DNA of 36,031 bases from a virus. Taxonomy: Duplodnaviria > Caudoviricetes. Shown one piece after another: positions 3,113 to 24,042 of the stretch. Made by a program: the position numbers and the translations under genes. Numbering within the stretch: the stretch's first letter is position 1; every line of letters starts with the position of its first letter. The notes below the pieces were generated by a model, which saw nothing but the letters and a program-made list of their open reading frames with translations, did no database searches and was not told the origin of the DNA. Where the stretch lies: positions 1-36,031 of the IMG/VR virus record IMGVR_UViG_3300006169_000014, one strand, 5' to 3'.

Positions 3113-3642
3113 CACCACGTGCCTCCCCGGTCTGTGGAGCATCCAGCAGTACGCGCGAGCTCGGCGTCCAGCTCCTCCGCCGTCCAGCGCCGAGCCTCGC
3201 GGGGCGGCGCCGCGGGCGGAGCCTTGGCAGCGATTCGGTGCACGAGATCCACGGGGGCGGCGGGCTTTTGCTGCGCCGGATCGGCCGGCACCACTGCAGC
3301 ACCCGCCGCCCCGTTGGACACCACTAGGGCCTGAGCGGCCCGGTTGTACCTTTCGAGCTGCACGATCCGTGCACGCGGCAAGCTCGGGATTCGAGCGGCC
3401 CTCTCCCGAGCCAGCCGCGCGCGCTCGCTCTGCACGATGGCGGCGCTCGCCTCCCGAATCTCGGCAATCGATGGCAAGAACCGGCTCGTCGCGACCAGCC
3501 GAGCAACGGCGCGACGGGCGACGGCCACATCCAGGTCGACGAGCAGGGTCTCGTAGACCTGCGATGTACTCTCGCTCGTCTTCGCATTCGGGAACGCACC
3601 CATGAGCATCATGACGAGCTCGGCAGCTTCGGATCGTTTCAC
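3112..3642 (-). CDS. replicative helicase loader/inhibitor (SPP1 G39P-like)
   Basis: AFPN...FLPSIAEIRE signature; directly follows the replication initiator; GTGA overlap. Confidence 0.7.
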   Translation of the reverse strand: MKRSEAAELVMMLMGAFPNAKTSESTSQVYETLLVDLDVAVARRAVARLVATSRFLPSIAEIREASAAIVQSERARLARERAARIPSLPRARIVQLERYNRAAQALVVSNGAAGAAVVPADPAQQKPAAPVDLVHRIAAKAPPAAPPREARRWTAEELDAELARTAGCSTDRGGTW

Positions 3643-4625
3643 TTTCCACCTCCCGCAGCCGCCATCCGCTCCTGCTCTGCCTCCTGCTCGCGCAGCATCT
3701 GGACGCGGTCGGCTTGGCGTTGCAGGCGGGCGTCGGGATCGACTTGACAGCCTCGGGTGGAGCGGAGTTTGGCGCGCTTCGTCTCGCCCCACGTCTTCCA
3801 GTTGCCGAACTGGCGCCGCACGTAGCCCCTGAGTTCGCCGGCGAATACTCCCCGGCCTCCGCCGATGGGACCAGCCTTGAGCGAGGCGAATCGCTCGTCA
3901 ATGTCGTCGGGATGCACGCCCGCGGCGACGGCCGCTGCACGAAGCTCCTCGTCGATGGCGAGGTCCGGCGGGATGCGGTCCAGCAGCTCATCCGACGAGG
4001 CCAGGGCCGCCCACCGCTCGGCAACAACAGAAGGATCTGGTTGGGTTGGGTTGGGTTGGGGACGCGCGGGCGCCTGCGCTTGTACGCGCGTGGGCGGGCG
4101 CGCGCCCCTGAGGGGCGTCCCCTCGATGTCCCCCTGCTTGTCCCCCTGCTTGTCCCCCTCGATGTCCCCGGGGTGTCCCCCCGGATGTCCCTCGTTGTCC
4201 CCGGAACTGTCCCCCCGAGCGTGGGCTCGGAGGAGCTCGAGCTGTCGGCGGTGCTCCTCGCGCTGCCGGCGCTTCTTCAGCGCTGCCTTCTCCCGCCGGA
4301 GTTCCACTTCTTCCGGCGGTGGCGCGTGATCGAGGTAGTCGTGCAGCTGCCAGCCGCCGTCGACAGGATCAACCAGGCCGGCGCCGCGATTGCCATCACG
4401 GAGCAACCCACCGCATTCGACGAGCGCCTGCAGTGCCTTGCGGGGATTCCGAGGCGCACCGATCAGACCATCAATATCCTCGTCGGGAATGAACCCTTCA
4501 GTAGTCGGGTTCTTCGCGGCGTAACATTTGAGCGCCCACCACATCATGATCGCTTCGCCGCGCCCGAGCTTGTAGGCGCGCACGTACTTCTCGCAGCCGA
4601 CGAACTCCTCTTTCGCTGTGATCAC
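3639..4625 (-). CDS. phage replication initiator (RepA/O-like)
   Basis: winged-helix-like N-terminus ending GWQLHDYLDH, basic helix, internal DNA repeats and PNPTQP linker. Confidence 0.75.
   Translation of the reverse strand: MITAKEEFVGCEKYVRAYKLGRGEAIMMWWALKCYAAKNPTTEGFIPDEDIDGLIGAPRNPRKALQALVECGGLLRDGNRGAGLVDPVDGGWQLHDYLDHAPPPEEVELRREKAALKKRRQREEHRRQLELLRAHARGDSSGDNEGHPGGHPGDIEGDKQGDKQGDIEGTPLRGARPPTRVQAQAPARPQPNPTQPDPSVVAERWAALASSDELLDRIPPDLAIDEELRAAAVAAGVHPDDIDERFASLKAGPIGGGRGVFAGELRGYVRRQFGNWKTWGETKRAKLRSTRGCQVDPDARLQRQADRVQMLREQEAEQERMAAAGGGK
4116..4216. repeat. iteron array, putative replication origin
   Basis: TGTCCC at 4127, 4139, 4151, 4163, 4174, 4186, 4196, 4208 plus CGTCCC at 4116; spacing 10-12 bp. 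Confidence 0.75.
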
Positions 4626-5173
4626 GCCGCCCCCCGCAGGATGAGCGCGTCCGCGCCCTCGATGCCGCTCAGGCCCCAGTTCGCGACGACCCAGGCGTCC
4701 ATCTCGTCGCCGTCCCACCCCACAGGCAGCCCAGCGGTGCGGAGCACGGCCTGCACCTGGTCCTTCACCGGCGCTGGCTTCGGCGCGCCCTTCTTGCGCT
4801 GCGCGCTGAAGGTGCCGAGCAGAGTCCGAGCCGTCGCCGGCGGCACGACGGTGAGCGGCAGCCCGAGGCCCATGACCACGTCGCGCTTCAGGTTACCGCC
4901 GATCTCGCCGAGCGAGTGGCTGTTGGACATACGCGCACTGAACGCGTACTGCTCCATGAACACGTCGGTGACCTCGTGCTCCTGCGCGAACTCCATCATG
5001 CGTGTGCAGATGAAGTCGAGACGCTGGACGCGATCGGTCTCGCTGGCGCCCTTCTTGAGACCGAGCCCAAGCTTCACCCTCGCCACCTTCGACCAGTCGA
5101 GCCCCCAATCCGCCGGCACCGCAACGAGCCCCGTGCCCGTCAGCGAGGCGTCGATTCCCATCGCGACTCTCAT
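4622..5173 (-). CDS. RuvC-like Holliday junction resolvase
   Basis: GIDASLTGTG, VFMEQY and DEMDA acidic motifs of the RuvC fold. Confidence 0.85.
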   Translation of the reverse strand: MRVAMGIDASLTGTGLVAVPADWGLDWSKVARVKLGLGLKKGASETDRVQRLDFICTRMMEFAQEHEVTDVFMEQYAFSARMSNSHSLGEIGGNLKRDVVMGLGLPLTVVPPATARTLLGTFSAQRKKGAPKPAPVKDQVQAVLRTAGLPVGWDGDEMDAWVVANWGLSGIEGADALILRGAA

Positions 5174-20120: not shown

Positions 20121-20411
20121 TCAGCTGTTCGCTGGGGAATCGCGTTCGAGTCGTTCTTCAGAGCCCTTGCGGCGACAGTCCGCACAGATGGCGCCGGCGT
20201 CGGCGAAGGCCTGGGCGCGGGCGCGTGGCGGTGTGAGGTCGCAGAACAGGAGACCCGGGCTCGGCTCGAGCTCCTCGAGCGACGGCGTCCCGTACTGCGC
20301 GAACACGACCTCCACCGCCGGAAGGGCGTCCTTCACGATCATCGCGCTCGCGAGCCCGTCGGCGCAGGAGTCGTGGGTGATGAGCTTCGTGACCTTGCTG
20401 CAGTCGATCAC
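20121..20411 (-). pseudogene. truncated DHH-family phosphoesterase
   Basis: THDSCADGLASA and LLFCD motifs present; similarity stops where the DHH motif is expected. Confidence 0.55.
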
Positions 20412-20629
20412 TGGCCCTCCTCCACCGCGAGGTCGGCATCGATCGGGCCGAGCAGATCATCGAGCTTCTTCGCGAGCTTCCGGCCTTCCCAGGTGCGCTT
20501 GCTGGCCTTGTGCGCGCGCTCGCGCGTCGCAGGCGGGACTGGCCGCGAAGGCAGCCCCGCGAACGCCTTGCTCTCGCGCGGCTCCCACTCCGCCGGCATG
20601 CGCAGGCGATTGAACCGGCGGTCGGTCAC
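20408..20629 (-). CDS. hypothetical protein
   Basis: 73 aa; GTGA overlap with the integrase stop. Confidence 0.55.
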   Translation of the reverse strand: MTDRRFNRLRMPAEWEPRESKAFAGLPSRPVPPATRERAHKASKRTWEGRKLAKKLDDLLGPIDADLAVEEGQ

Positions 20630-22299
20630 TGCTCACCTCGCCCGCGCTTGCGCCGCGCCGCATCGAGACTCGCCACCTTAGGCCGTGTGGCCTCCTCGGC
20701 GCGCTCTGATGCCGCGAGTGCCTCACCGAGGGGAGCCACGAGGTGCCACCGCCGGTGTGTGCGGGCGAGGTCGAGGAGTTCTACGAGATGCTCACTCGAC
20801 AGTTGCGTGCCGCAAGCCACCCCCCCCTGATCGGGGTGGCTTGCAGGCGTCGTTCCTGCACTTCCCTGTGCGCGAGCCGGCTGTCTTTCTGCTGTTCCCG
20901 TCGCCGCTGCAGTTTCTGTGCAGCTTTCTAATCCGCTGGTCGTAGGTTCGAATCCTACCGGGCGTGCTACTCGATCCAGCATGATTTCCGCTCCCTCCTC
21001 GCCGCATCCGTCAGCGGCTGAAATTTGTTGAGCCACCTCGTAAGCCATCCCCCCCTCCGCGGGCGCCGTCGGCACCGGTGAATTGTCGAGCTTTCGGAAC
21101 CCGAGCGCGACGTCCAGCGGTGCCCAGTCGCCGAGGGTTTCGATGCGCTCAGCCTCCCGCCGGTAGCGGTTGATCATCTGGCTCGACGTGTGCCCGGTGC
21201 GGCGCGCGATCCAGGCCTCGGTGCGGTCGTTGGCCAGGGCGACAGTGATAAAGCCCGCGCGTAGGTCGTGGAAGCGGATGACCCCGCGTCCGGGGCGGGC
21301 GTCGAACAACTCCGGGCGGGAGATACCGGCCAGCCTCACGTGCTCGCGGAACAACTCCGCCTGCTCCGTGTCGCTCAGCGGCGGGAACACCAGGGCGTCC
21401 GCGGGCGGGTCGCCGAGGCCCTTCCGATACGCGACGAGAGCGTCGCGCGTGCCGGGGAACATCTCCCAGCTCAACACCTCGCCCGTCTTGCTGATGCCAC
21501 CATGGACGAAGCCGTTCTCGAGGTCGAGGTCGCGCCAGAAGAGCGCGAGGTACGCCTTGCGCCCGCCTTCGCGATGTCCGAAGCCATAGAGCACGCGATA
21601 ACCGATCTCGACCTTCGGCGAGCCACACAGAACGACGTCGTTCGCCGGATACAAGAACGGGTACTTCGGCGGACGGCTCGGCTTCGGCGAGAAGCCGACG
21701 TCGAGGGGACTGCGCTCGATGATGCGGCAAGGGTTCGCTGCCTTCTTGAGAAGGTATTGGATGACCTGGGCATATTGCTTGCGCGTGGAGTCGGTCTTCA
21801 CTCGCGCTGGGAGGTTCTCCATCGCCCGATAGGCGTCATCGGCACTGAAGCGAACGAGTGGGATGTTGCCGATGGTCTTGCAAAGCGCATTCAGCCGACT
21901 GACGTCGTCACCGACACTCGCCTTGTCCCGCTTGAAATAGCCTGACCCGTAGCGAACGGCGAGTGTGCCGCTCGTCCAGCGTTCGCCGAACTCTCGAAAC
22001 GTGATGAGCGCCCCGGGCTTGCCGTTGCCGTCGTCTATGGCCTCCGCGCACAGCTCTCGGATTGCCTCGACGCCACCGTCGAACTCGGCCTGATCGTGAC
22101 TCGCGGCGAGCTGGCGCAGTGCGGTCTCGATCTCCGTGTAGCGGCCGCGGGCCACGAGCAATGCTGCCATCTCGGCCATGACAGCCTCGCGTTGTTCCGC
22201 GACCTCCTTGCGGGGAGCCTGGATCACGAACCAGGGCCGACGCCCCTTGCCGATTCTGAGCTGGGTGCCCCAGCCGTTCTTTCGTCGATGCAACGTCAT
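20626..22299 (-). CDS. int: tyrosine integrase with long C-terminal tail containing attP
   Basis: GGRK (R), SKTG (K), HDLR, TGH and NRY catalytic set. Confidence 0.9.
   Translation of the reverse strand: MTLHRRKNGWGTQLRIGKGRRPWFVIQAPRKEVAEQREAVMAEMAALLVARGRYTEIETALRQLAASHDQAEFDGGVEAIRELCAEAIDDGNGKPGALITFREFGERWTSGTLAVRYGSGYFKRDKASVGDDVSRLNALCKTIGNIPLVRFSADDAYRAMENLPARVKTDSTRKQYAQVIQYLLKKAANPCRIIERSPLDVGFSPKPSRPPKYPFLYPANDVVLCGSPKVEIGYRVLYGFGHREGGRKAYLALFWRDLDLENGFVHGGISKTGEVLSWEMFPGTRDALVAYRKGLGDPPADALVFPPLSDTEQAELFREHVRLAGISRPELFDARPGRGVIRFHDLRAGFITVALANDRTEAWIARRTGHTSSQMINRYRREAERIETLGDWAPLDVALGFRKLDNSPVPTAPAEGGMAYEVAQQISAADGCGEEGAEIMLDRVARPVGFEPTTSGLESCTETAAATGTAERQPARAQGSAGTTPASHPDQGGVACGTQLSSEHLVELLDLARTHRRWHLVAPLGEALAASERAEEATRPKVASLDAARRKRGRGEQ
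20925..20967 (+). mobile_element. attP: attP core: 3' half of tRNA-Arg(UCU)
   Basis: TTTCTAA anticodon loop, TCCGC, TGGTC, GTAGG-TTCGAAT-CCTAC T-arm, CGGGCGT-G acceptor strand; no 5' half. Confidence 0.85.
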
Positions 22300-22303
22300 G
22301 GGC

Positions 22304-22645
22304 TTACTTGCCTCGCACGGCTCTGAGCCGCGCCATCATCTCGTCTTTCGCTGCCGCCTTGGCGAGGGGTGGCTTGACCGGCTCTTCCTTGTCGAAGCTC
22401 TTGCCGTGCACGCGCGCGAGTTCTTCGCGCAGCGCGTCCGGCGACAAGAAATATCGACGGCCGTCTTTTCGCGCGCCTGCCTGCCCCTTGATCATACGGC
22501 GCCTGACAGCCTTGATGTGCCGCCGAGGACCCAACGGGCTGTCGGCTTGCTCCACGTCATCGTCTGCCGACCGACGAAGACGGGCCTCGACCTTTTCCGC
22601 GACCAGGTCGGCGAACGCCTCGAAGGCCTCGACGAGGTCCGTCAT
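22304..22645 (-). CDS. excisionase-like / recombination directionality factor
   Basis: small basic protein just upstream of int with GRRYFLSPDAL wing-like motif. Confidence 0.55.
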   Translation of the reverse strand: MTDLVEAFEAFADLVAEKVEARLRRSADDDVEQADSPLGPRRHIKAVRRRMIKGQAGARKDGRRYFLSPDALREELARVHGKSFDKEEPVKPPLAKAAAKDEMMARLRAVRGK

Positions 22646-23652: not shown

Positions 23653-24042
23653 TTGAAGAAGCCCCAAAAGCCGCGTGTTCGCCGCCGCCTCAAGCCCAAA
23701 CCGTTCGTCGCGCTCGCTGCAACACCAGAGCCCATTCGCGACGAACGCGTGCCAGAGCCGCTGTGGAACCTGCCCGTACGCGTCGAACAAGCCAATGCCC
23801 TGGGACCCCGCTACAACCAGACCGAGCTCGCCGAGAAGAGCGGGCTATCGCAGGCGGTGATCAGCAAGCTCGCCAACCGCACGAACCTCGTCGGGATCAG
23901 GCTCGAGACGCTCTATAAGCTCGCCGGCGCGCTCGACGTGACCGTGCCGTGGCTGCTCGGCGAGACCAGCAGGCGACGGCCGCGCCGGAAGCCCGGGTCT
24001 CGCGGGACCCGCACGAGTAAGCGCACGCGCAGCGGCCGATGA
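23653..24042 (+). CDS. XRE/CI-family HTH repressor
   Basis: NQTELAEKSGLSQAVISKLAN...LETLYKLAGALDVTVPWLLG; start codon uncertain. Confidence 0.85.
   Translation: MKKPQKPRVRRRLKPKPFVALAATPEPIRDERVPEPLWNLPVRVEQANALGPRYNQTELAEKSGLSQAVISKLANRTNLVGIRLETLYKLAGALDVTVPWLLGETSRRRPRRKPGSRGTRTSKRTRSGR

What the first reader, a model, noticed from the sequence alone, without database searches (positions are those of the whole stretch)
20626..22299. attP (half tRNA-Arg) inside the integrase ORF: integration should rewrite the integrase C-terminus
Seen: 20925-20967 is a clean 3' half of tRNA-Arg(UCU), antisense and inside the int frame (peptide ARPVGFEPTTSGLE), downstream of the catalytic Tyr and about 100 codons before the stop. 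Phage genes flank both sides, so this looks like the unintegrated form. Known: Myxococcus phage Mx8 has attP within int, and integration into a tRNA gene replaces the Int C-terminus. Inference: viral and prophage Int isoforms differ, giving built-in directionality control, and the half tRNA can identify the host.
Basis: partly seen in the sequence, partly recalled or inferred. Interest (0 to 1): 0.78.

Follow-up and report, generated by a model that had tools for sequence, protein, structure and literature searches.

The report
Phage integrase sheds tail on integration
This phage's integrase gene runs straight through its own attachment site, an exact copy of half an arginine tRNA gene of Polyangiaceae myxobacteria, so insertion into the host would cut off a small conserved end-piece of the enzyme and separate the phage's replication genes from their likely promoter, which likely helps make insertion one-way until the phage is induced.

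Summary
Confirmed. The 557-aa tyrosine-integrase ORF (22299->20626) spans a 43-bp core (20925-20967) that is 43/43 identical to the 3' half of intact tRNA-Arg(TCT) genes in 2 of 383 Polyangiaceae genomes; identity stops exactly at the anticodon loop. Arm-like repeats flank it and phage genes lie on both sides (attP form). After the core comes a conserved ~60-aa helical hairpin. In relatives, 0 of 52 integrases beside an intact tRNA carry it in frame; it sits at the far end of the element, and in-silico excision re-fuses it in frame in 15 of 16 elements at many different tRNAs. So the C-terminus is swapped, as in phage Mx8, whose core is distantly homologous (22%) but whose tail shows no detectable similarity. 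What integration achieves is loss of the hairpin, not gain of a specific tail. Integration also cuts a tightly coupled early/replication operon from its presumed promoter (inferred). Directionality control is untested. The core narrows the host to a Polyangiaceae lineage, not a species. Two earlier scan notes describe this family on other DNA. Verdict: new variant of a known kind, interest 0.5.

The parts
20626..22299 (-). Tyrosine integrase, attP (long) form, 557 aa: N-terminal arm-binding-like domain (~1-85), core-binding (~100-200), catalytic (~215-400), disordered att-encoded linker (~408-496), C-terminal hairpin
   Evidence: domain names inferred from the fold and lambda Int match
21163..21165 (-). 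Codon of catalytic Tyr379, upstream of the att core, so both isoforms keep the whole active site
   Evidence: invariant in 88 sequences
20925..20967 (+). attP common core: 7-nt anticodon loop (likely crossover region) plus 3' half of tRNA-Arg(TCT); Int codons 445-458
   Evidence: 43/43 to intact tRNA-Arg(tct) genes in G714 and G715
21031..21048 (.). Two direct AGCCAY repeats 12 bp apart: likely arm-type Int binding sites on the int-proximal arm
   Evidence: (D3); a similar direct pair 11-12 bp apart in L008, L011, L012, L049
20815..20841 (.). Inverted AGCCAC pair 21 bp apart: likely arm-type sites on the other arm
   Evidence: inverted pair 20-23 bp apart in L008, L011, L012, L049
20629..20820 (-). 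Detachable C-terminal module (aa 494-557): predicted two-helix hairpin (aa 502-538) plus basic end helix; lost from Int on integration
   Evidence: about 2,247 sequences at E<=0.001 in the 50% representative library
22304..22645 (-). Candidate excisionase / directionality factor directly upstream of int (4-nt gap)
   Evidence: lead only: Atlas feature hit 0.91 to a cluster with HTH_17 in 25% of members; no Pfam or PHROG hit; no similarity to Mx8 uoi
20408..20629 (-). First gene of the downstream early operon; its GTG overlaps the int TGA (GTGA), the start of a close-packed minus-strand chain that runs to the replication initiator (3639-4718)
23653..24042 (+). Cro/C1-type HTH regulator, divergent from xis-int; the leftward promoter is presumed to lie between it and 22645
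   Evidence: HTH_3 E 2e-8; promoter not detected by the sigma-70 scan

Best explanation
The integrase gene contains its own attP, and integration into the host tRNA-Arg(TCT) gene would remove a conserved helical C-terminal module from the enzyme, which likely works as an Mx8-type switch: the long form of the free phage integrates efficiently, the shortened prophage form is likely poorer at integration and would need the Xis-like neighbour to excise. Shown: the core, its exact match to host tRNA genes, the intact active site upstream of it, the two sequence states in relatives and the in-frame re-fusion of the module. Inferred: crossover in the 7-nt anticodon loop restores the tRNA (the hybrid would end C-T-A, so it needs the host CCA-adding enzyme); the new tail is junk read from antisense tRNA and flank (predicted 20-135 aa after the core in four host loci), so the effect is loss of the module; the module, on a ~90-aa flexible linker, probably acts by protein-protein contact to hold Int protomers in the attP complex. 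The same cut would also strand the translationally coupled early/replication operon without its upstream promoter until excision rejoins it.
For: Core 43/43 to tRNA-Arg(tct), ending at the loop edge. Of 95 related loci whose tail could be read, 0 of 52 with an intact tRNA within 400 nt of the catalytic Tyr have the module in frame, against 11 of 43 without one (Fisher p 7e-5; 8 of the 11 were HMM seeds, the zero side is not circular). In-silico excision puts the module in frame in 15 of 16 integrated elements, 9 of 10 with both ends on one contig (p 8e-7 and 4e-4 at 1/3 per join), at Lys, Phe, Leu, Glu, Gln and Arg tRNAs, in both orientations; G726 is integrated at the same tRNA-Arg(TCT) with a 43-bp core. 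Closest relatives keep the module although P0002 switched to a sense 5' half of tRNA-Leu and P0005 and L002 read the core in another frame (tRNA identity read by me from the peptides). L007 (attP form) and L085 (integrated) are sister integrases (support 100). The module is under coding constraint (third codon positions differ 0.63 against 0.42/0.41), folds with pLDDT 93-97 over the hairpin and has no conserved start of its own (13 of 44 have no in-frame start 13-59 codons upstream of the conserved Trp position, 5 of 44 an SD-like one). Integrated tails range from 28 to 1183 aa with no conservation. Mx8 precedent: 112-aa tail replaced by 13 aa, modified enzyme less active (PMC4701971, passage). 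Operon: int stop overlaps the next start; the module's stop is GTGA or ATGA in 25 of 44; all 12 attP-form loci examined have co-directional ORFs downstream; Mx8 int is likewise followed by its replication initiator on the same strand.
Against: No activity was measured. The module is not universal: 6 of 15 viral loci without a tRNA lack it in frame and L001, L003, L004, L009, L015 have no copy in any frame of the fetched DNA; 5 of 52 integrated genes stop before the tRNA (L032, L053, L071, L074, L088) and in L053 excision does not re-fuse it; 13 of 41 genomes with an integrated relative, including both complete Sorangium chromosomes, gave no module hit at E<=1e-5. So some family members appear to function or persist without it. 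The Mx8 tail is not detectably homologous, so its behaviour need not carry over. Arm sites and an Xis-like gene could supply directionality by themselves. No promoter was found anywhere in 18.5-25 kb, so internal promoters are not excluded.
Confidence: 0.72

Rival explanations
1. The module is a stability signal rather than a recombination aid: it changes the half-life of free-phage Int (a degron or adaptor-binding hairpin), as the tag on the viral repressor does in mycobacteriophage BPs, so integration changes how much Int there is, not how it works.
For: It hangs on a long disordered linker with no fixed contact in the model; its nearest Atlas models include UVR-motif hairpins (under the naming bar), a motif I recall from ClpC and its partners; BPs precedent (PMC3694055, passages).
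Against: It ends in basic residues, not an ssrA-like tag (recalled pattern); no Pfam UVR hit in 44 members; a ~50-residue folded domain is more than a degron needs.
Confidence: 0.15
2. The main purpose of placing attP here is to cut the early/replication operon from its promoter; the module is kept open mainly to carry ribosomes across attP to the coupled downstream gene and has little effect on Int itself.
For: GTGA/ATGA stop-start overlap in 25 of 44 module ends; 16 four-nt overlaps in the minus-strand chain of the window (read); the ~35 codons just after the core are not conserved.
Against: Coupling needs an open frame, not a conserved fold; the hairpin is conserved residue by residue across thousands of sequences.
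Confidence: 0.1
3. The window is not a free phage but the junction of two tandem prophages at one tRNA, with the Int N-terminus from one and the module from the other.
For: Such junctions exist in this family (L043/L044) and explain a serine recombinase fused to the module (1 of 83).
Against: The two flanks make one non-redundant phage gene set; P0001 is 90% identical over the full length including the tail, and P0002-P0004 share the same clade-specific tail variant.
Confidence: 0.03

Closest known systems
Myxococcus phage Mx8 Int (IntP/IntR; NC_003085; Tojo 1996, Magrini 1999, Tojo and Komano 2003, seen only as titles in reference lists and as a passage in PMC4701971)
   Same: Myxobacterial temperate phage; tyrosine integrase with attP inside the ORF downstream of the catalytic Tyr; tRNA target; about 100-aa tail replaced on integration; small HTH gene upstream; replication genes downstream on the same strand; homologous core (hhalign 99%).
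   Different: Only 22% identity in the core, BLASTP E 0.005, long branch outside the family; tail not detectably related; different host family and tRNA; here a family-wide module that survives changes of target tRNA, orientation and reading frame.
Integration-dependent immunity of mycobacteriophage BPs (PMC3694055, passages)
   Same: attP inside a coding sequence; integration removes a C-terminal piece and so changes the protein's state.
   Different: There the gene is the repressor and the piece a degradation tag; here it is the integrase and a folded hairpin; arm-like sites and an Xis-like gene are present here.
SSV-type archaeal integrases (PMC5861418, passage)
   Same: int gene interrupted by its att site at a tRNA gene.
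   Different: In SSV-type the split separates the N-terminal part from the catalytic part (recalled); here the whole catalytic domain stays with the promoter-linked part.
Serine integrases of streptococcal ICEs targeting rumA (PMC4701971, passage)
   Same: att site inside the integrase gene, C-terminus exchanged on integration.
   Different: Different recombinase chemistry, protein-coding target, no shared module.

Membership tests
Tyrosine (lambda-type) integrase | R-K-H-R-H/W-Y catalytic set | tested here: met
   R247, K271, H344, R347, H370, Y379 invariant in 88 sequences
Tyrosine (lambda-type) integrase | Core-binding plus catalytic fold | tested here: met
   AF2 pLDDT 84; Foldseek lambda Int E 6e-7, prob 1.0
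Tyrosine (lambda-type) integrase | Arm-type sites on both sides of the core | tested here: inconclusive
   Direct pair and inverted pair of AGCCAY; same layout clear in 4 of 10 other attP-form loci; the motif occurs about once per kb genome-wide; binding not tested
Mx8-type attP-in-int switch (works like) | att core inside the int ORF, downstream of the catalytic Tyr | tested here: met
   codons 445-458 of 557
Mx8-type attP-in-int switch (works like) | Integration replaces the C-terminus | tested here: met
   shown in relatives, 15 of 16 joins in frame; computed only, for this phage
Mx8-type attP-in-int switch (works like) | Shortened form less active for integration, competent for excision with Xis | not testable with these tools
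   needs recombination assays
Mx8 Int as a sequence family | Homologous core | tested here: met
   hhalign 99%, E 2e-18, 22% identity
Mx8 Int as a sequence family | Homologous detachable tail | tested here: not met
   hhalign prob 0.1; HMM score 1.7; tested against one Mx8 sequence only
SSV-type suicide integrases | Split separates the catalytic domain from the gene start | tested here: not met
   all catalytic residues lie upstream of the core; feature recalled
UVR (UvrB/UvrC motif) hairpin | PF02151 match or clear structural match | tested here: inconclusive
   Atlas rows under the bar; no PF02151 hit in 44 members; best VIA Z 5.6 to unrelated helices

The most novel reading that the evidence does not exclude
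A very large myxobacterial integrase family uses one recombination event as a double switch: it amputates an undescribed helical module needed for efficient integration and at the same time unplugs the translationally coupled replication operon from its promoter, forcing the order 'excise first, then replicate'; the module has been kept in frame through repeated changes of target tRNA, orientation and reading frame.
Probability: 0.4. Interest if true: 0.72.

Novelty: new variant of a known kind. Interest (0 to 1): 0.5.

Why it matters
The Mx8 tail swap has stood as a rare curiosity since the 1990s (PMC4701971 calls it found in very few elements). Here it is the rule in a large Polyangiaceae-centred family, with a compact, modelable module in place of Mx8's unrelated tail, which makes the old question of how a tail sets integrase activity directly testable. 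Practically, the family offers integrases and attB sites for Sorangium and relatives, which are hard to engineer, and warns that integrases taken from prophages may be the weakened form; the module also explains thousands of small 'hypothetical proteins' called at prophage ends.

Tried and rejected
Single-sequence scan of viral contigs: none. Exact 31-nt core in viral contigs: none. Core in class and phylum samples: 0 of 401, 0 of 121; one search used a wrongly spaced pattern and says nothing. Metagenome scan gave mostly distant integrases. Sequencing runs: none was listed, so no read evidence for excised or integrated forms. No lysogen of this phage in five candidate genomes; G717 has only 70-79% pieces of related phage genes. 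Module as a portable tail shared with serine recombinases: rejected, 1 of 83 (P0048), best read as a tandem-junction chimera because that family also ends in antisense tRNA. Module as a stand-alone gene: no conserved start. Known family or fold for the module: none in Pfam, PDB sequences, Foldseek or VIA; this shows no new fold. Self-association of the module could not be modelled because the queue of the complex tool was full; it stays open. Weak RsmY hit at 20814-20930 (25 bits against 57) taken as chance. Sigma-70 promoter scan uninformative. The tree is the quick one only. Literature: no paper held all of integrase+attP+C-terminal+Polyangiaceae or Mx8+integrase+C-terminus+excision; Polyangiaceae+prophage+integrase gave two papers seen as listings only; searches gave nothing on this module; PMC12884075 passages were not relevant. 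The primary Mx8 papers are not in the library, and subscription papers and supplements were not seen.

Full report
Observation. The window is a whole 36,031-bp virus record with no intact tRNA. The minus-strand ORF 22299->20626 encodes 557 aa, a tyrosine integrase by PHROG (E 4e-12), by six invariant active-site residues in 88 relatives and by fold (AF2 mean pLDDT 84; best Foldseek match lambda Int). Bases 20925-20967 are the anticodon loop TTTCTAA plus the 3' half of tRNA-Arg(TCT), antisense to int, at codons 445-458, 65 codons after Tyr379 and 99 codons before the stop. Early and replication genes lie to the left, a Cro/C1 HTH gene and head genes to the right.

Host match. A 30-nt piece of the core at up to 2 mismatches hit 17 of 383 genomes of the family of G003 (a Polyangiaceae record), exactly in 2. 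Over the full 43 nt, G714 (two contigs) and G715 are identical and G717 differs at one base; all are ARAGORN-called tRNA-Arg(tct) genes, and identity does not extend one base left of the loop. That is the signature of crossover in the anticodon loop, one of the two site classes listed in PMC4383910 (passage). The 40-nt core was not found in 401 genomes sampled from the class or 121 from the phylum. All named genomic relatives of the integrase are mostly Polyangiaceae and other Myxococcota. G717 carries 70-79% pieces of related phage genes, but no lysogen of this phage turned up in five genomes searched. The host is thus likely a Polyangiaceae lineage near G714/G715/G717; the species is open.

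Two states in relatives. I read the tail after the catalytic Tyr in 95 related loci (1 phage record, 15 viral contigs, 79 genome contigs; L014 and L018 dropped because the motif was not found). In 52 an intact tRNA lies within 400 nt (Leu, Lys, Phe, Glu, Gln, Ser, Arg, Thr, Cys), the ORF runs into it in 47, and the tails are unrelated, 28-1183 aa. None of the 52 carries the conserved ~60-aa end module in frame; 11 of the 43 without a tRNA do (8 of them seeded the profile). The module then appeared at the far ends of integrated elements. Joining the two ends at their shared core gave one open frame from Int through the module in 15 of 16 elements: L176 (46-bp repeat, tRNA-Lys, 17.7 kb) and L177 (43 bp, tRNA-Phe, 13.3 kb), 12 of 13 pairs (three further rows dropped as self-matches or joins between different elements; 16 of 30 module loci had no partner among the int loci held), and G726 at tRNA-Arg(TCT) itself. 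Ten pairs lie on one contig by matching contig numbers, 9 in frame (p 4e-4; all 16, p 8e-7; related elements are not fully independent). P0006 reads ARPVGFEPTTSGLE on into a full antisense tRNA-Arg and stops at 456 aa: an integrated isoform at the same target. Computed integration of the window's gene into four host loci gives 478-593 aa proteins, all without the module.

The module. It is predicted as a two-helix hairpin with a basic end helix (pLDDT 93-97 over the hairpin), tethered by a disordered linker at aa 408-496 that is the att region itself. It shows codon-position constraint, lacks a conserved start of its own, ends the protein in 116 of 120 listed hits, and 40 of 47 long hits have this Int core. 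A profile finds 2,247 representatives at E<=0.001, the best 150 mostly short ORFs, as expected for gene calls at prophage ends. It matches no Pfam family or solved structure clearly; a UVR-like look is a lead under the bar. In the window's own clade (7 rows, support 97) it persists although P0002 carries a sense 5' half of a Leu tRNA and P0005 and L002 read the core in another frame (my reading of the peptides), which points to selection for the fusion.

att anatomy. A direct AGCCAY pair (21031, 21043) and an inverted pair (20815, 20836) flank the core; the same arrangement is clear in 4 of 10 other attP-form loci. A candidate excisionase lies 4 nt upstream of int (lead only).

Operon. The int stop overlaps the next start (GTGA), and minus-strand ORFs continue close-packed, with 16 four-nt overlaps in the lists, past a methylase, HerA-like ATPase, sigma factor, SNF2 helicase and RuvC to the replication initiator. 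All 12 attP-form loci examined have co-directional ORFs downstream, and Mx8 has the same order. Integration would leave this operon at the far end of the prophage, facing away from the tRNA's promoter. This is inference; internal promoters were not excluded.

Mechanism. Most likely (0.72) an Mx8-type switch: long Int with the module integrates; integration removes the module; the shortened Int, still catalytically complete, excises with Xis; excision restores both the module and the operon. The sequence states are shown, the activity difference is borrowed from Mx8 (PMC4701971 passage; the need for Xis is recalled and fits the title of Tojo and Komano 2003). Against: several family members lack the module or stop before att, so it is not indispensable everywhere. 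Rivals are a stability signal (0.15), pure operon cutting (0.10) and a tandem-prophage junction (0.03).

Comparison and novelty. The principle is known from Mx8 (PMC4383910, PMC4701971, passages), with analogues in BPs repressor (PMC3694055, passages) and SSV integrases (PMC5861418, passage). The core is distantly homologous to Mx8 Int but the tail is not detectably so. The searches listed found no paper on this family or module, within a library that lacks most subscription papers. Two earlier notes of this scan describe the same family on other DNA; I had reached this reading before seeing them. Verdict: real, new variant of a known kind, interest 0.5.

Noticed in passing
window 131-20629 (- strand): About 20 kb of close-packed co-directional early genes downstream of int (C5 methylase, HerA-like ATPase, ASCH protein, sigma-70 factor, SNF2 helicase, RuvC, replication initiator) that attP would separate from their upstream promoter.
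   Followed up: partly
window 20845-20924: Between the core and the inverted arm pair, several CAGRAA-like words on the - strand and a small hairpin at 20906-20924 abutting the anticodon loop; possible Xis or host-factor sites. Also gives a weak RsmY score below threshold.
   Followed up: no
protein P0048: Large serine recombinase ending in antisense tRNA followed by the same module; 1 of 83 relatives, likely a tandem-junction chimera. That serine family also ends its ORF inside a tRNA.
   Followed up: yes
L043/L044 (G018:C87): Two near-identical elements in tandem at tRNA-Leu(TAG); the inner junction looks like attP but its int is out of frame with the module.
   Followed up: partly
L079 and L069 (G029): One genome bin holds an attP-form int and an integrated sister int sharing a 43-bp tRNA-Gln core: excised form or tandem junction.
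   Followed up: partly
L228 and L233 (G714): Two intact copies of the exactly matching tRNA-Arg(TCT) with the same upstream and different downstream sequence, suggesting occupied and empty alleles in one bin.
   Followed up: no
proteins P0037, P0040, P0070, P0106, P0110, P0113: More distant tyrosine integrases, without a BLAST hit to this core at 1e-5, end in the same module.
   Followed up: no
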